Source: an uncultured archaeon (GTDB lineage Archaea > Asgardarchaeota > Jordiarchaeia > Jordiarchaeales > Jordiarchaeaceae). Taken from it: a stretch of 32,000 bases of DNA. A program made the position numbers and the translations under genes. Shown here one piece after another: positions 1,412 through 32,000 of the stretch (the stretch's first letter is position 1; every line of letters begins with the position of its first letter). The notes under the pieces were generated by a model, which made no database searches, was not told where the DNA came from, and was given only the letters and a program-made list of their open reading frames with translations. The stretch lies in contig CAZECW010000020.1 in assembly GCA_964510585.1 (NCBI GenBank), forward strand, positions 70,669 through 102,668. The letters are read 5' to 3'.

Positions 1412-1519
1412 GAACAACGGTTTGGAACTTCTAACACTAAACACAATCATCATTAAAAAATTTTCCCACGCCATTTTTTAGACGTGAAACTTCCGACTAA
1501 CACGGTAATTTTTTATATT

Positions 1520-2000
1520 TAATGCTTTCGTTAACCTACAAACCCCCAACAACCCTAAACCACCCACCCACAGATAGGTCTACAGCCACACACAAAAAAC
1601 AAAAATTAAGCCACAAACCAGCACAAAAACGCCAAAAACACCTACCGAGACCCCAAAAAATGAGAAAAATTAACAAACACCTCCGCCCAACAATCAAAAA
1701 ATAAAAAACAAAAAAACACAAAAAATAAAGTTAAAACACCCCCAACCAACACAAAAAAGAGCACAAATAAAACAAACTACCCTTTTAAAATCCCAAAAAT
1801 AGAACCAAAACTAAGGACCAAACAAAACAAAAACCACAAAAACAAACCAGTACTCCACGAAAATAATAAACACAAAAAAACAACAAACCAAAAAAAGCAA
1901 ATAATTTATAAATTAAAAAACACAACGTAAGACGGCGCAAAAGCCACACAACAGCGCCCAATAAAAACCAACAACCTATCATGACCAAAAGAAGGTAACC
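1520..2000. repeat. Low-complexity A/C-rich tract in the hdrA-hdrC spacer
   Basis: Runs such as aaaaaacaaaaaaacacaaaaaat; line 1861-1920 has 1 G in 60 nt. No exact tandem unit. Confidence 0.85.
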
Positions 2001-2003
2001 ACC

Positions 2004-2594
2004 ATGACTGAAGACCAAAAAATAATAAGAAAAACAGATCCACAATTCATCGAAGAAATAATAGAATACGGTTCAAATTACTTCACAAAAGAAGAAATGG
2101 AAAGACTCAAAGCCTGCATCCAATGCGGCACATGTATCGGCGGCTGTCCAAGCGGTAGGAGGACCGCGTGGCGTATTAAGAAGATTTTCAGGAGAGCTCA
2201 GCTGGGATTAAAAGAAGATGTTTTCAAGGATGATGAGCTCTGGTCGTGCACGACGTGTTTTACCTGTCAAGAGCGTTGCCCACGTAAGGTGCCTACTACG
2301 GATGTTGTTCGTGTTATTCGTAATCTTGCTTTTAGGAGTGGTGTTGCCAATCCGAGGCATTTGGCTGTTTGTGGTTACCTTTTCAAGTTTGGTCATGCGG
2401 TTCCTATTAATGATGAGACTAGGGCAGTTAGGAAGAAGATTGGCTTGGATGAACTTCCGGCGACTGTTCACAAGTTTCCTGAAGGTTTGAAAGAAGTTAC
2501 CAAAATAGTTGAGGAGACTGGTTTTAAGAAGATTGTTGAGGATGCTCAGAAGGAGGCTCAAATGAAGGAGGCTCAGAAGGTTGAGAAAAAGTAG
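2004..2594 (+). CDS. hdrC: Heterodisulfide reductase subunit C
   Basis: Two 4Fe-4S motifs, CIQCGTCIGGCP and CTTCFTCQERCP; GHAVP and LPATVH segments typical of HdrC; overlaps the hdrB start. Confidence 0.96.
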   Translation: MTEDQKIIRKTDPQFIEEIIEYGSNYFTKEEMERLKACIQCGTCIGGCPSGRRTAWRIKKIFRRAQLGLKEDVFKDDELWSCTTCFTCQERCPRKVPTTDVVRVIRNLAFRSGVANPRHLAVCGYLFKFGHAVPINDETRAVRKKIGLDELPATVHKFPEGLKEVTKIVEETGFKKIVEDAQKEAQMKEAQKVEKK

Positions 2595-28782: not shown

Positions 28783-29847
28783 TTGCAATTCAGCCAAGTG
28801 GTAGAGGATCTATCAAAGAAAGTTAATCAGGTTCTAGTTTCCTTTTTGGACGGTAAAATTGCAATGGCGCCTTTCTCTTATCATCGAACATACTACTCAA
28901 ATATTAAAGAATTTATTATGAGGGGAGGAAAAAGACTCAGACCAATTTCCCTCATCCAAGCCTACAGGGGAGTAGCGGATTCCAGCGAGAAAATATTCCT
29001 CCCCTCCCTTTCCGTCGAACTCCTCCATAATGCGACACTAATCCACGATGACATCATAGACCACGACGAGCTTCGAAGAAGCGGCCCCACATTCCACGTA
29101 ACTTATAGGGAGTGGTACAAGAAGGAATTTATGTCAAGCACTAAAGCTGAAGACTTTGGAAACACCATGGCTATCTTGGGCGGGAATACCACCTATAATT
29201 TGGGCATCGAAACCCTCCTATCCTCCAAGTTTCCCCCTAACCTGATCTGTGAGGCTATCCGCCTCTACCAACAAGTTTTTCAAGAACTAATTGACGGAGT
29301 CATGTATGAGAGTGTGATTCAGAGAAAAGATGGTGTGACTCTCGACGAATACCTGCAAATGGTAAAAATGAAAACCTCCTCCCTACTGGAAAAATCTATA
29401 CAAATCGGAGCGGTGTTGGGGGGAGCGAAAACCAGCCAAATCAAAATGCTTAGAGAATACGCAGTGCTGGTGGGGCAATCATTCCAGATTCAGGATGACA
29501 TACTGGGAACATTCGGAGTAGAGTCAGACACGGGAAAACCAACCGATGGAGACATAAAAGAAGGTAAAAAAACTGTGTTAGTAGTTCAGGCACTAAACAA
29601 TGCTTCTACTAACGATCTAAACATCCTCAAGAAGGTGCTCGGCAATTCAAATGCCGACCCAAGTGATGTGGAAAGAGTTAGGAAAATATTTCAAGAAACT
29701 GGAGCTCTCGAAAAGGCAAAAAAACTAGCGTTAGAACTGAAGGAAGAAGCCAAAAAAAGATTACTTAAAACTAAACCCCCACTAAAGAAAGAATCGCAAG
29801 AATTTTTCCTAGACCTAGCAGACTTCGTTGCAAGCAGAATTTACTAG
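28783..29847 (+). CDS. idsA: trans-Isoprenyl diphosphate synthase (GGPP synthase/IdsA family)
   Basis: GGKRLRP, first Asp-rich motif LIHDDIID..ELRR, MKTS, second motif FQIQDDILG, GKPTDGDIKEGKKT; TTG start. Confidence 0.92.
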   Translation: MQFSQVVEDLSKKVNQVLVSFLDGKIAMAPFSYHRTYYSNIKEFIMRGGKRLRPISLIQAYRGVADSSEKIFLPSLSVELLHNATLIHDDIIDHDELRRSGPTFHVTYREWYKKEFMSSTKAEDFGNTMAILGGNTTYNLGIETLLSSKFPPNLICEAIRLYQQVFQELIDGVMYESVIQRKDGVTLDEYLQMVKMKTSSLLEKSIQIGAVLGGAKTSQIKMLREYAVLVGQSFQIQDDILGTFGVESDTGKPTDGDIKEGKKTVLVVQALNNASTNDLNILKKVLGNSNADPSDVERVRKIFQETGALEKAKKLALELKEEAKKRLLKTKPPLKKESQEFFLDLADFVASRIY

Positions 29848-30088
29848 AAAAGCACAAAATTACTTCAGTTGTACTAACTCGATAATGTTAAATTAGGTTG
29901 CTTACCGTTTCAAGCATTACTAAAATAGCAGAAAAAGCCACCTTCTCTTAGGTAAAAGAGAAAAAAATAAGGGAAAAAGTAGCAATAAAAACAAATTTAA
30001 CATTGTCAAGCTAATTAAAAATGGATTGTTTATCGTTTATTCTCTGTTTCAGTATTGGTGAATTGGGTGGGTTGTTTGCTTTTTGGAT

Positions 30089-32000
30089 TTAGATTCCTGT
30101 TTTGAGGGGCTTGATTTCTTGAGCTTTGGCTATTAGGTTGGGAAGTATTATGTTCTGGTATACTTTTGCGTATCCCTCTTCTTCGCTGACCACTGCTACT
30201 GGGATTTCTGTTGCGTTTAAGGGTGCAAGAAGTGTTTCTTGTTGATCTCTTATGCAGCCGTAGAGTTTTCCTCGAGTATTTTTCCATATCCTGATTTTCT
30301 TTTTTGAGAGCTTTTCTACTTCTTTTGTTTCTTCCTCGCTGAAGTCTGTTACTAAGTGTATAATTACTGATTCCTCTTTTTTCAATAGTTCTTCGGTTGG
30401 AATATCTTGGAGGTTGGGGACAATTATTGTTATTGATTTGGAGGCTCTTCTAACCATATCCACTATGTGTGTTATTATTGACTCCTTTGTAGCCAGGTGC
30501 CAGGTTTTTTGGATTTCGTTCAGCTTTGATTTTTCTAACTCCTCCCAAGCCGATTTGAGGAGTTCCGCAGTTTTTTCAGAGTCATTTTCTGTTTTCTCAA
30601 ATAGCGTGGTGACAGCCGAAGATGTTTCATTTATGTATGTTGCGATGGAGTTTTCTGTTTTTTCGAGGTTAGAGCTAAGATAACTCTGTATCTTATCTAT
30701 TAGAAGTCTAACATCTCTTTCATGTTTGTTTAGGGTTTCGCCCAGTTTGCTTTGTACCTGATTTACGGTTTGAATCAGCGTTCCAGAATGGTTACTTAAT
30801 GTTTCCACTGTTTTTTCTTTGGCTTCACTAATTGTTTTGTTGTAATCTTCCAGGTGTCCCCTTATCAATTGTGATGTTTGCTCCTTAAAGCTGGAAACTG
30901 CTCTTCTTAGCTCTTCAAGGTAAATGTTTAAGGATTCCACCAAAGAGGATTTAATGCGTTCTTTTTGTTCCTCAAATTCTTGAATGTGTTCTTTTATAAT
31001 GTTTGTTAATGATTCCCTGTTAACTTTGAGTGTTTCTTCTATTATCTTAGAATTATTTGTAAAGGTTTCTTTTGTTTCCTCTTTTAATGATTTTGCAAAC
31101 TCGGTGTTTCCCTGCACAATTTTTTCAATTTTTTCTTCCATATCGTGTTTAGCGGCTTCTATGAGGCTCTCCAGTTTTTTCTCCTGCTTTTCCATTAGAG
31201 ATACAATTTCCTCATTTAGATCTCGCACTATTGTTTGAAAACTTTCAAGTTCCAACCGCACATTTTCAAACATGTTTTTTACATTTTTATCTTTTGAATC
31301 TTTAATGATTCCAATTAATTCTGAAACATGTTCAAGTAGTGTTTCTCGGCTCTTACTTATGGTTTCTTTGGTTTCGATAAGTTGCATATTCAAAGTGTTG
31401 ACAGCTTCATTGAAAAGAATTAAACCTATATTCTCCAGCGCTTTCCTCTCTTCTTCAATTTTTTCCTGCACGCTTTTAGCTAGTTTCTCATTTCCCACCT
31501 TCTTTTCTTCTAACCTTTTGCTAATCAAAGAAGAAAAGCTATTTTTTAACTTGTTACTCTCTTCCTCTAAATACTCCAAATTACTTTTAATCTTCTGCCC
31601 ACTAATACTTTTCAAGTCATCGACCGACTTTTGATTCTCCTCCAACAACGAAGAAATCCTGTCCTCTAATTCATTCTCAATCCCCTCTTCAATTTTCCTA
31701 ATTGACCCAGCCTTCTCACTCAAAGAAACATTAATGACGTTTTGTAGATTAGAAATCTTTTTCTCAAACTCACCTAAACTTTTGTTGAGGGTGTTTTCTG
31801 TTTGGTGTTTGGTGTTTGTGATTTTTTCTTCGAACTCCTCTATGTGTTGTTTGAGGTTTTCCGCTATCTTGGCGTCCAGCTCGTGTGCCAGTTGGCTGAT
31901 CCACTTGGATTGCTGGTCCAGGGCGGCTTCCTCCTCCTCCAAGAGTTTGGTCATTGTTTGGTTTATGGAGGAGACTTCTCCGTCGATGGTGCTGAGGAAG
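30089..32000 (-). CDS. Long coiled-coil protein with C-terminal TrmB-effector/PLD-like domain; 5' end lies beyond the window
   Basis: The frame of ORF 30089..31954 stays open to 32000 (FLSTIDGEVSSINQTMTKLL). About 500 aa of E/K/L-rich heptad sequence, then TWHLATKESIITHIVDMVRRASKSITIIVP...LYGCIRDQQETLLAP. Confidence 0.85.
   Translation of the reverse strand, partial: FLSTIDGEVSSINQTMTKLLEEEEAALDQQSKWISQLAHELDAKIAENLKQHIEEFEEKITNTKHQTENTLNKSLGEFEKKISNLQNVINVSLSEKAGSIRKIEEGIENELEDRISSLLEENQKSVDDLKSISGQKIKSNLEYLEEESNKLKNSFSSLISKRLEEKKVGNEKLAKSVQEKIEEERKALENIGLILFNEAVNTLNMQLIETKETISKSRETLLEHVSELIGIIKDSKDKNVKNMFENVRLELESFQTIVRDLNEEIVSLMEKQEKKLESLIEAAKHDMEEKIEKIVQGNTEFAKSLKEETKETFTNNSKIIEETLKVNRESLTNIIKEHIQEFEEQKERIKSSLVESLNIYLEELRRAVSSFKEQTSQLIRGHLEDYNKTISEAKEKTVETLSNHSGTLIQTVNQVQSKLGETLNKHERDVRLLIDKIQSYLSSNLEKTENSIATYINETSSAVTTLFEKTENDSEKTAELLKSAWEELEKSKLNEIQKTWHLATKESIITHIVDMVRRASKSITIIVPNLQDIPTEELLKKEESVIIHLVTDFSEEETKEVEKLSKKKIRIWKNTRGKLYGCIRDQQETLLAPLNATEIPVAVVSEEEGYAKVYQNIILPNLIAKAQEIKPLKTGI

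What the first reader, a model, noticed from the sequence alone, without database searches (positions are those of the whole stretch)
1500..32000. Recurring saw-tooth amino/keto (AC to GT) strand skew with origin-like polarity every few kb
Seen: the + strand switches abruptly from A/C-rich to G/T-rich at about 2140, 7275, 12900, 30030 and 31785, and less cleanly near 9420 and 21250. It then drifts gradually back to A/C-rich, for example across the OPT gene (G/T at 10750-11300, A/C at 12100-12800) and across the coiled-coil gene (G/T at 30030-30500, A/C at 31500-31775). The direction is the same at divergent (hdrA/hdrC) and convergent (OPT/HAD, idsA/coiled-coil) junctions and for genes on either strand, so it is not simple coding-strand bias. 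Established: C->T and A->G deamination on single-stranded DNA makes the exposed strand G/T-rich, and AC|GT is the polarity seen at bidirectional replication origins; sharp jumps with linear decay resemble eukaryotic skew N-domains. Inference: many fixed, closely spaced sites of replication initiation or strand opening; 5' resection at recurrent breaks would give the opposite GT|AC polarity. I do not know of a description of this at kb scale in archaea.
Basis: partly seen in the sequence, partly recalled or inferred. Interest (0 to 1): 0.75.

Follow-up and report, generated by a model that had tools for sequence, protein, structure and literature searches.

The report
Kilobase saw-tooth strand skew in Asgard archaeon
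In this hot-spring Asgard archaeon the silent DNA positions run from neutral to A/C-rich along almost every transcription unit and snap back at its end, a strong and largely undescribed evolutionary footprint that looks like a strand-directed repair or gene-conversion bias rather than many replication origins.

Summary
Keto skew (G+T minus A+C) varies 2.4 times more than chance in 300-nt windows. It is strongest at fourfold-degenerate sites. Sharp AC|GT up-jumps outnumber down-jumps 123 to 23.

On the coding strand, silent-site skew falls from about 0 at the 5' end to about -0.25 at the 3' end of each transcription unit. Steps are therefore +0.52 at convergent junctions, +0.25 at tandem junctions and about 0 at divergent and operon-internal junctions. 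Some flips lie inside genes (hdrC at 2140).

Comparison with five genomes of the genus shows kilobase patches of one-directional substitution on every branch:
- the favoured direction is raised about 1.8-fold and the reverse is suppressed to about 0.45-fold;
- A<>T and C<>G transversions follow the transitions.

This argues against plain deamination and fits a fixation or correction bias.

Among 20 Asgard genomes sampled, strong keto heterogeneity occurs only in those with NucS/EndoMS and no canonical MutS. EndoMS cuts G/T, G/G and T/T mismatches but not A/C, C/C or A/A.

My best reading (inferred) is NucS-linked, strand-polar biased correction anchored at transcription-unit ends. Many replication origins are not supported. 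Other windows of this genome and other genomes in this scan carry similar notes.

The parts
1532..2140 (.). A/C-only tract on the + strand (skew -0.55 to -0.68). It covers the hdrA/hdrC intergenic DNA and the first 135 nt of hdrC. Both edges are sharp: a down-jump at 1532 and an up-jump at about 2123-2140.
   Evidence: Conserved in G001 (-0.71) and G005 (-0.60). No Rfam family matches. X3 contig 1855-3422 is identical.
2141..3480 (.). G/T-rich arm (+0.17 to +0.33) over the rest of hdrC and hdrB. It decays to 0 by about 4000.
   Evidence: +0.13 to +0.29 in all six genomes of the genus. Fourfold sites are +0.67 right of 2140.
7255..8130 (.). Flip at the end of rpS17e, followed by an extreme G/T tract (+0.38 to +0.49). 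The tract covers the intergenic DNA 7280-7606 and the 5' half of the radical SAM/SPASM gene (7607-8632).
   Evidence: The tract is lineage-specific: +0.44 in the G000 clade against +0.12 and +0.09 in G005 and G002. Inferred changes on the clade stem are C>T 16, A>G 25 and A>T 5, against G>A 0, T>C 0 and T>A 0.
8131..9364 (.). Decaying tail of the same G/T arm (+0.27 to +0.02). It crosses the convergent junction into the minus-strand metallophosphoesterase gene.
9365..10502 (.). Weak up-step at about 9420 in the divergent gap, with decay across the URO-D family gene.
   Evidence: Step +0.25. Fourfold sites go from +0.07 to +0.37.
10737..12800 (+). OPT transporter gene. The + strand skew falls from +0.18 to -0.17 along the gene, a typical transcription-unit gradient.
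12801..12939 (.). Convergent OPT/HAD gap holding an up-step.
   Evidence: Fourfold sites go from -0.51 on the left to +0.12 on the right.
29848..30088 (.). Convergent gap between the polyprenyl synthase and coiled-coil genes, with a sharp flip at about 30021 (+0.63). It also holds a ~140-nt repeat that has many copies in the genus.
30089..31954 (-). Coiled-coil gene. The + strand skew falls from +0.35 at the gene's 3' end to -0.05 near its 5' end, then steps up again at about 31785.
21314..28318 (-). Six-gene minus-strand cluster. It shows a shallow gradient over about 7 kb: + strand +0.1 to +0.25 at the 3' end and about -0.05 further upstream.
   Evidence: long units show the same total fall spread over their length.

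Best explanation
The saw-tooth is an evolutionary footprint of a strand-polar bias on the keto/amino axis, written into silent and non-coding positions.

Shown:
- On the coding strand, G and T are progressively replaced by A and C toward the 3' end of each transcription unit. The A/C tract stops about 20-40 nt past the stop codon.
- The + strand therefore jumps from A/C-rich to G/T-rich at unit ends, whichever way the genes point.
- The bias arises in kilobase patches that differ between lineages of the genus.
- Within a patch, all changes that turn an amino base into a keto base (or the reverse) are favoured, transversions included, and the opposite changes are suppressed.

Inferred:
- This behaves like a biased correction or fixation process, a strand-specific analogue of GC-biased gene conversion. 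It does not behave like extra damage.
- The most likely agent is the NucS/EndoMS mismatch endonuclease, the only mismatch-repair system found in this genome. It cuts mismatches made of G and T (G/T, G/G, T/T) and ignores those made of A and C (A/C, C/C, A/A).
- Consider heteroduplex or nascent DNA with a fixed strand polarity around recurrent repair or recombination start sites, mostly at the ends of transcription units. One of the two reciprocal mismatches would then be destroyed and the other kept. That would drive one strand toward A/C on one side of the site and toward G/T on the other.
- The sign, the nature of the start sites and the link to transcription termination are not established.
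For: Reality and silent-site origin.

Transcription-unit anchoring:
- Coding-strand fourfold skew is about 0 at 5' ends and -0.24 to -0.26 at 3' ends, in both the GC and TA components.
- The total fall is the same whatever the unit length.
- The A/C tract ends 20-40 nt after the stop codon.
- Junction steps are +0.52, +0.25, -0.06 and -0.015.
- Sharp up-jumps are 7-fold enriched in convergent gaps and 3.5-fold in tandem gaps, and not enriched in divergent gaps.

Directional substitution:
- radical SAM patch 46:0;
- patches on the stem, G005, G002 and terminal branches, with sd twice binomial.

Fixation-type signature:
- In held-out sites of directional windows, the favoured direction runs at 1.83, 1.51 and 1.79 times the branch-wide per-site rate. 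The disfavoured direction runs at 0.44, 0.42 and 0.50 times.
- A bias of B about 1.3-1.4 predicts about 1.8 and 0.45.
- Keto-changing transversions go the same way: 80:18 (p=2e-10), 58:24, 35:7, 40:20.

NucS link:
- NucS is present and canonical MutS was not found in G000 and its order.
- A fourfold-site keto variance ratio >= 3.7 is seen only in NucS+/MutS1- genomes (6 of 11). It is 0.7-1.6 in all 9 genomes with canonical MutS.
- The purine and GC axes are not overdispersed.
- EndoMS specificity for mismatches made of G and T: PMC4838380 and PMC6159521.
- The only published intense correlated GC+TA skews (GRINS, tied to gene conversion; PMC8256042) are most widespread in Streptomyces. That genus belongs to Actinobacteria, which lack MutS/MutL and use NucS (PMC5290159, abstract).

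Recombination: it is frequent among the four close genomes, as shown by mosaic site patterns.
Against: - The NucS association is correlative. It rests on about 3 independent lineages with the trait against about 3 NucS-only and about 7 MutS-bearing families without it. Five NucS-only genomes show little keto heterogeneity.
- I could not derive the observed polarity unambiguously from the known biochemistry.
- Topology switches among the four close genomes are not enriched at flips (n=13).
- Within the close clade, outgroup-polarised per-site rates at unit 3' ends are nearly symmetric (ratio 1.1) and the skew is slightly eroding there (199 v 148). The process is therefore patchy or episodic, or the polarisation is noisy.
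- Parsimony on deep branches is unreliable: fourfold identity to G005 is 0.47.
- A model in which errors are partitioned by direction of DNA synthesis also predicts one direction raised and the other lowered.
- Gene calls came from a crude home-made caller that misses strongly skewed genes.
Confidence: 0.4

Rival explanations
1. Many fixed sites of replication (or recombination-dependent replication) initiation. Outward-moving leading strands become G/T-rich, as on the leading strand of NucS-dependent bacteria. This would give AC|GT at each start site and a decline toward the next one.
For: - The polarity is right, and up-jumps exceed down-jumps 5-9 fold.
- The arms are symmetric and extend 2-3 kb.
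- Several flips lie inside genes and their arms cross gene borders.
- Flips are conserved across the genus despite 47% fourfold identity.
- In wild-type Corynebacterium, A>G exceeds T>C 48:13 and C>T exceeds G>A 67:40 on the leading strand (PMC6159521).
- A partition of errors by direction of synthesis would also raise one direction and lower the other.
Against: - There is no step at divergent junctions or inside operons, so the sites would have to sit almost only at 3' ends of transcription units.
- The flips share no motif.
- The closed genome of the genus is reported as one bidirectional replicon, and its large-scale keto skew is 10 times weaker than the local one.
- The unit gradient is equal in both orientation classes.
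- Local skews up to 0.7 far exceed any replication skew I know of (own knowledge).
Confidence: 0.15
2. Transcription-associated mutagenesis. Strand exposure in transcription bubbles or R-loops, including antisense or read-through transcripts that start or end at unit 3' ends, deaminates C and A on the exposed strand.
For: - The pattern is organised by transcription units and resets only where units end.
- There is a small G/T excess in the first 100 nt of genes (+0.06), as at vertebrate transcription start sites.
- Hot-spring temperatures speed deamination (own knowledge).
Against: - The main signal has the opposite sign to classical non-template-strand deamination: the coding strand becomes A/C-rich. 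It also grows toward the 3' end.
- Transversions follow the transitions.
- Reverse changes are suppressed rather than unchanged.
- A>G is as frequent as C>T, although adenine deaminates far more slowly (own knowledge).
- Endonuclease V is present.
- Flips occur inside genes, and arms cover genes of both orientations.
Confidence: 0.15
3. Selection on strand composition. An example is A/C-rich (unstructured) 3' parts of mRNAs. Another is DNA or RNA that cannot self-pair, since A/C-only and G/T-only strands form no Watson-Crick hairpins.
For: - The fixation-type signature and the equal behaviour of transitions and transversions are what selection on base identity predicts.
- The A/C tract ends just past the stop codon, near the expected transcript end.
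- The flip sits at the same codon in two old CDC48 paralogs.
Against: - Non-coding tracts and arms that make coding strands G/T-rich in some genes and A/C-rich in others have no common RNA-level rationale.
- Patches appear and fade between close lineages at orthologous genes.
- The trait is absent from related Asgard genomes with MutS.
Confidence: 0.1
4. Assembly, binning or sequencing artefact.
For: The genome is a 217-contig metagenome bin with 4.8% estimated contamination.
Against: - Contigs from independent runs of other studies are identical over the skewed tracts.
- The same flips occur in five other genomes of the genus from China and California, one of them closed.
- Coding capacity and Pfam domains are intact inside the skewed tracts.
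Confidence: 0.01

Closest known systems
[quoted passage not shown] 2021, PMC8256042)
   Same: - Intense, positively correlated GC and TA skews (G+T versus A+C).
- Abrupt changes within 1 kb.
- Strongest at third codon positions, with drag on amino-acid composition.
- Coding function is kept.
- Linked to gene conversion, with mechanism unknown.
- The hosts (Streptomyces) rely on NucS, like this archaeon.
   Different: - GRINS are defined as repeats (>500 bp, >80% identical) inside polyketide synthase clusters of bacteria.
- Here the skew is genome-wide in single-copy genes and intergenic DNA of an archaeon.
- Here it has a consistent AC|GT polarity and is anchored at transcription-unit ends.
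- Only the two CDC48 paralogs resemble GRINS proper.
Replication-associated skew: jumps at origins and human skew N-domains (own knowledge; cited in scan note e1-5049566)
   Same: Sharp upward jumps with AC|GT polarity, followed by a gradual, roughly linear decline. Both GC and TA components take part.
   Different: - The scale is 1-5 kb instead of 0.1-3 Mb.
- The amplitude reaches 0.7 instead of about 0.05-0.1.
- Jumps sit at 3' ends of transcription units and are missing at divergent promoters.
- There is no origin motif.
- Transversions share the bias.
Transcription-associated strand asymmetry at 5' ends of vertebrate genes (Green 2003; Polak and Arndt 2008; own knowledge)
   Same: It is organised by transcription units, acts on the keto/amino axis (G+T excess), and decays over 1-2 kb.
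   Different: There the coding strand is G+T-rich near the start. Here the dominant effect is an A+C-rich coding strand that grows toward the 3' end, and it is far stronger.
GC-biased gene conversion
   Same: A fixation bias that raises favoured and lowers disfavoured substitutions at silent sites. It arises from biased mismatch handling in heteroduplex DNA and is local and episodic.
   Different: - gBGC favours G:C pairs and is strand-symmetric.
- Here the favoured class is keto or amino bases on one strand, with opposite sign on the two sides of a site.
- A link to recombination was not shown here.
Motif-anchored keto or GC-skew saw-teeth noted elsewhere in this scan (GGCC, AGGCCT, ACGGCCGT, HIP1)
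   Same: Kilobase saw-tooth of silent-site skew with sharp AC|GT flips.
   Different: In this genome no palindrome or other motif anchors the flips. The largest mean step at any 4- or 6-base palindrome is 0.025.

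Membership tests
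Replication origin / N-domain type skew jump | Upward jump with AC|GT polarity that is much commoner or sharper than the opposite jump | tested here: met
   123 v 23 at a step >= 0.5, and 35 v 4 at >= 0.6.
Replication origin / N-domain type skew jump | Position independent of transcription orientation; jumps at any intergenic class | tested here: not met
   Steps are +0.52 at convergent, +0.25 at tandem, -0.06 at divergent and -0.015 at operon-internal junctions.
Replication origin / N-domain type skew jump | Shared origin sequence elements (ORB-like repeats) at the jumps | tested here: not met
   No shared repeat was found among 123 jump flanks. No palindrome anchors them and no motif is visible at 60 change points. 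ORB consensus and Orc1/Cdc6 neighbourhood were not searched specifically.
Replication origin / N-domain type skew jump | Direct evidence of initiation (marker frequency, nascent strands) | not testable with these tools
   The organism is uncultured. Only assembled contigs of the runs were available.
Transcription-associated non-template-strand deamination asymmetry | Coding strand G+T-rich, maximal near the transcription start | tested here: not met
   Only +0.06 in the first 100 nt. The main signal is -0.25 at 3' ends.
Transcription-associated non-template-strand deamination asymmetry | Spectrum limited to C>T and A>G | tested here: not met
   A<>T and C<>G transversions follow the same direction, 80:18 on the stem branch.
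GRINS | Mean absolute GC and TA skews above 0.15, positively correlated, strongest at third codon positions | tested here: met
   For example, GC skew is -0.6 and TA skew -0.7 at 1650-1950, and +0.5 and +0.5 at 7500-7800. Fourfold sites reach +-0.6.
GRINS | Tract >500 bp with >80% identity to another tract in the same gene cluster | tested here: not met
   The skewed tracts are single copy. No hits were found among jump flanks except one paralog pair. The CDC48 paralogs reach 87-93% identity over about 75 codons only, and they lie on different contigs.
Biased gene conversion-like fixation bias | Favoured substitutions raised and disfavoured substitutions lowered relative to background | tested here: met
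   Held-out observed/expected ratios are 1.83 and 0.44, 1.51 and 0.42, and 1.79 and 0.50. The test is parsimony-based.
Biased gene conversion-like fixation bias | Co-location with recombination tracts or hotspots | tested here: inconclusive
   Recombination mosaics are present. No enrichment of topology switches was found at 13 flips.
NucS/EndoMS-only mismatch repair background | nucS present, canonical mutS not found | tested here: met
   The NucS_C domain hits at E=1.9e-32 at C187:35160-35489. The MutS_V domain is found only in a weak 725-aa MutS-like paralog at E=6e-9, whereas canonical MutS in other Asgard genomes scores about 1e-80.

The most novel reading that the evidence does not exclude
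Organisms that rely on NucS/EndoMS alone experience a 'keto-biased gene conversion'. The enzyme sees G/T, G/G and T/T mismatches but not A/C, C/C or A/A. Any repair or recombination intermediate with a fixed strand polarity therefore converts one strand toward A/C and its partner toward G/T.

In this Asgard genus such intermediates start at the ends of transcription units. Over evolutionary time this rewrites silent sites, and some amino acids, into a kilobase saw-tooth.

The same force would explain GRINS in Streptomyces and the saw-teeth seen in other archaea.
Probability: 0.3. Interest if true: 0.9.

Novelty: new variant of a known kind. Interest (0 to 1): 0.78.

Why it matters
- **A strong force on silent sites.** If the reading holds, a non-adaptive force comparable to GC-biased gene conversion shapes codon usage, amino-acid content and apparent selection signals in Asgard archaea and probably other NucS-dependent lineages. 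Third positions reach 85-100% A/C over 1.6 kb of a CDC48 gene.
- **A map of DNA transactions.** It would show where strand-polar DNA transactions begin in uncultured relatives of the eukaryotic ancestor, using sequence alone. These sites lie at transcription-unit ends.
- **A mechanism for GRINS.** It offers a testable mechanism for GRINS, whose origin is open.
- **A practical caveat.** Such skews distort gene callers, since both strands are open in A/C-only or G/T-only DNA. They also distort codon-based expression proxies, dN/dS and phylogenies.

Tried and rejected
- **Palindrome or motif anchoring** (as in other genomes of the scan). The largest mean step at any 4- or 6-base palindrome is 0.025. 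No shared repeat or motif was found at the flips.
- **RNA genes.** Rfam gives no match in the window, so the A/C-only tract is no known RNA.
- **Artefact.** Rejected.
- **Head-on replication-transcription conflict.** In the closed G005 genome the 5'->3' fall is -0.16 and -0.19 in the two orientation classes. The effect is therefore not specific to one orientation. Caveat: I inferred replication direction from 20-kb skew, which may reflect gene-strand bias instead.
- **Error-prone Y-family polymerase.** The IMS domain was not found in any of the 11 genomes of the order. It is therefore unlikely to be the agent here.
- **Missing hypoxanthine repair.** Endonuclease V is present.
- **Recombination breakpoints at flips.** No enrichment was found (13 flips, 33 switches). 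The test is underpowered.
- **Stationarity.** Outgroup-polarised changes within the close clade do not maintain the 3'-end skew. Deep-branch parsimony at fourfold sites is unreliable.
- **Expression data.** No RNA holder is listed for this DNA. Two runs labelled metatranscriptomic hold only a about 92-94% relative as contigs, without strand information.
- **Literature.** I found no description of a kilobase keto saw-tooth in archaea. The 2026 survey of archaeal skews (PMC12999951) treats genome-scale GC skew only.

Full report
**What the window is.** It lies on contig C20 of a 3.78-Mb, 217-contig genome bin. Close relatives are named Candidatus Jordarchaeia QZM_A3 and Candidatus Freyarchaeota SRVP19, which has a closed chromosome. 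The organism is therefore an Asgard archaeon from hot springs. Genes were confirmed by Pfam:
- hdrC and hdrB
- ribosomal protein S17e
- a radical SAM/SPASM protein
- a metallophosphoesterase
- a URO-D family protein
- an OPT transporter
- a HAD hydrolase
- a polyprenyl synthase
- a coiled-coil protein

**The observation.** The + strand keto skew, (G+T-A-C)/N, reaches -0.68 at 1650-1950 and +0.49 at 7350-8100.

Genome-wide:
- The sd in 300-nt windows is 0.142 against 0.058 for random sequence.
- There are 84 tracts with |skew| >= 0.45.
- Sharp up-jumps outnumber down-jumps 123:23 (35:4 at the higher threshold). This test gives the same answer on either strand.

At fourfold-degenerate sites the effect is larger, not smaller:
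- Gene-level sd is 0.258 against 0.104 expected.
- Around the 123 up-jumps, fourfold skew is -0.60 | +0.58 in the nearest 200 nt, about +-0.2 at 1 kb and about +-0.1 at 2-3 kb. The profile is symmetric.
- First and second codon positions are dragged along (r = 0.46 and 0.31 with the fourfold skew).

It is not an artefact. Contigs from two independent 2017 hot-spring runs of other studies are identical across the flips. Five other genomes of the genus show the same flips at orthologous places.

**The rule behind "same direction for either gene strand".** Read on the coding strand, fourfold skew falls from +0.06 in the first 100 nt to -0.25 in the last 100 nt of genes. I grouped co-directional genes less than 40 nt apart into transcription units. 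The skew then runs from about 0 to about -0.3 whatever the unit length, from 0.6 to over 3.5 kb. The A/C excess ends 20-40 nt after the stop codon.

A 5'->3' decline on the coding strand gives a left-to-right decline on the + strand for genes of both orientations. It also predicts the junction steps that I measured at fourfold sites:

| Junction | Step | Share positive |
|---|---|---|
| Convergent | +0.52 +-0.03 | 94% |
| Tandem, gap >= 40 nt | +0.25 +-0.015 | 78% |
| Divergent | -0.06 +-0.03 | 47% |
| Operon-internal | -0.015 | 49% |

Sharp up-jumps are enriched as follows:
- 27% lie in convergent gaps, against 4% for random places.
- 35% lie in tandem gaps, against 10% for random places.
- Divergent gaps show no enrichment (6% v 6%).

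The pattern is therefore organised by transcription units, with the sharp edge at their 3' ends.

The rule is not the whole story:
- 19% of sharp flips lie well inside genes. Examples are hdrC at window 2140, C90:25785 and C173:24497.
- Arms can run 2-3 kb across genes of both orientations and across divergent gaps.
- Two CDC48 paralogs have 85-100% A/C at third positions for about 550 codons, then flip to G/T at the same codon.
- No palindrome, motif or repeat marks the flips. This differs from the motif-anchored saw-teeth noted in other genomes of this scan.

**How the skew is written.** I projected five genomes of the genus onto 112 kb of this genome. Three are about 91% identical in DNA and two about 77%.

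The G/T tract at 7280-8130 is specific to the G000 clade: +0.44 against +0.1 in G005 and G002. On the branch leading to that clade I count:
- C>T 16, A>G 25 and A>T 5
- G>A 0, T>C 0 and T>A 0

The total rate there (13.6%) is no higher than in neighbouring genes.

Such one-directional patches occur on every branch. The share of keto-raising changes per 500 nt has about twice the binomial sd, and different patches appear in different lineages.

Two properties constrain the mechanism:
- **Both directions are affected.** I found directional windows on a random half of the sites and measured them on the other half. The favoured direction runs at 1.83, 1.51 and 1.79 times the branch-wide per-site rate. 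The disfavoured direction runs at 0.44, 0.42 and 0.50 times. Added damage would raise one direction and leave the other alone. A fixation bias with B of about 1.3-1.4 predicts about 1.8 and 0.45. A partition of replication errors by direction of synthesis could also give such numbers.
- **Transversions follow.** In windows defined by transitions alone, the keto-changing transversions (A<>T, C<>G) go the same way: 80:18, 58:24, 35:7 and 40:20. Deamination of C and A cannot do that.

Caveats:
- Parsimony was used throughout.
- Fourfold identity to the two outgroups is only 0.47.
- Within the close clade, the 3'-end skew is not being maintained on average. This fits an episodic, patchy process or noisy polarisation.

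**A candidate agent.** I searched 31 Asgard genomes for repair genes. G000 and its whole order have NucS/EndoMS and only a weak MutS-like paralog. Ten other genomes have canonical MutS, and most of those lack NucS.

I sampled 16-140 kb from each of 20 genomes and computed the variance of fourfold-site skew in 100-site blocks relative to binomial.

| Group | Genomes | Keto variance ratio |
|---|---|---|
| NucS-only, strong | G000, G005, G006, G009, G021, G012 | 5.5, 5.9, 3.7, 5.4, 5.2, 9.1 |
| NucS-only, weak | five others | 1.4-2.1 |
| With canonical MutS | nine | 0.7-1.6 |

The purine and GC axes are not overdispersed in the strong genomes (1.1-3.5).

[quoted passage not shown] These are the three pairs of reciprocal mismatches that correspond to the three classes of change biased here. 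The axis of the enzyme's blindness is the axis of the skew.

The only published intense correlated GC+TA skews are GRINS. They are tied to gene conversion and are most widespread in Streptomyces (PMC8256042). Streptomyces belongs to Actinobacteria, which lack MutS/MutL and use NucS (PMC5290159, abstract). I found no paper that links the two.

Suppose heteroduplex or nascent DNA around a recurrent start site always has the same strand polarity. One reciprocal mismatch would then be destroyed and the other kept. That gives opposite keto bias on the two sides of the site.

This is inference:
- The association rests on few independent lineages, and NucS alone is not sufficient.
- I could not fix the expected sign from first principles.
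- Flips were not enriched for recombination breakpoints among the four close genomes, although mosaics show that recombination is frequent.

Origin-like polarity is confirmed. The following points speak against many replication origins:
- The flips avoid divergent promoters and operon interiors.
- They share no sequence element.
- The closed Freyarchaeia chromosome is reported to have a single bidirectional cumulative GC-skew pattern (PMC11291895).
- Its 20-kb keto skew is about +-0.04, ten times weaker than the local arms.
- Its transcription-unit gradient is equal in both orientation classes (with the caveat that replication direction was inferred from skew).

Some local DNA synthesis or repair starting at these sites remains possible.

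Classical transcription-associated deamination has the wrong sign and the wrong spectrum. A Y-family polymerase was not found in the order. Endonuclease V is present.

**Novelty.** I found no description of a kilobase keto saw-tooth in archaea. The nearest published things are GRINS, replication skew jumps and N-domains, transcription-start asymmetry and GC-biased gene conversion. First readers noted the same pattern in at least eight other windows of this genome. Follow-ups in this scan describe related saw-teeth in other genomes, some anchored on palindromes. This report adds:
- the anchoring at transcription-unit 3' ends;
- the fixation-type and transversion signatures;
- the NucS-only association.

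**Verdict.**
- The best reading, at moderate confidence, is a strand-polar biased correction process, probably linked to NucS.

Noticed in passing
window 3500-6824: About 3.3 kb is absent from all five same-genus genomes and from the relative present in runs X13 and X14 (a contig joins 3499 to 6824). It carries two ORFs without a Pfam match (3804-4511 -, 4463-5773 -). It also holds a ~60-nt repeat at 4384-4445 with dozens of copies in the genus. This looks like an inserted mobile element.
   Followed up: partly
window 29875-30015 and 21123-21218: Two short intergenic repeats (~140 nt and ~95 nt) each have dozens of copies in genomes of the genus. The first sits exactly at the 30021 flip. Other flips do not share it.
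   Followed up: partly
G000 C177:26472-28712 and C187:70434-72713 (L077:10434-12713, - strand): Two CDC48 paralogs have third codon positions 85-100% A/C for about 550 codons, then flip to G/T at the same codon in the D2 domain. DNA identity is 87-93% over codons 300-375, against about 50-65% elsewhere. That suggests gene conversion between them, which would be GRINS-like.
   Followed up: partly
five compared stretches (window, L074-L077): Site patterns among the four close genomes are mosaic. The main split has 1526 sites and the two alternatives have 637 and 532, clustered in runs of 100-2000 nt. This indicates frequent homologous recombination within the genus.
   Followed up: partly
whole genome G000: There are 31 loci matching HdrB (CCG-domain) in this genome and similar numbers in its genus. 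The Y-family polymerase domain was not found in any of the 11 genomes of the order.
   Followed up: no
window 2115-2150; G000 C62:73324; C126:16884: Three flips coincide with DNA that encodes CxxCxxC iron-sulfur motifs. This may only reflect G/T-rich TGY codons.
   Followed up: no
window 7100-7277: Ribosomal protein S17e carries a long Glu-rich C-terminal extension. Its DNA is purine-rich and lies just before the 7275 flip.
   Followed up: no
window 7580-8128 (-) and 7607-8632 (+): In A/C-only or G/T-only DNA, stop codons are rare in all six frames. Long overlapping ORFs therefore appear on both strands. My codon-usage gene caller missed the real radical SAM gene. This is a practical trap for annotation of such genomes.
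   Followed up: yes
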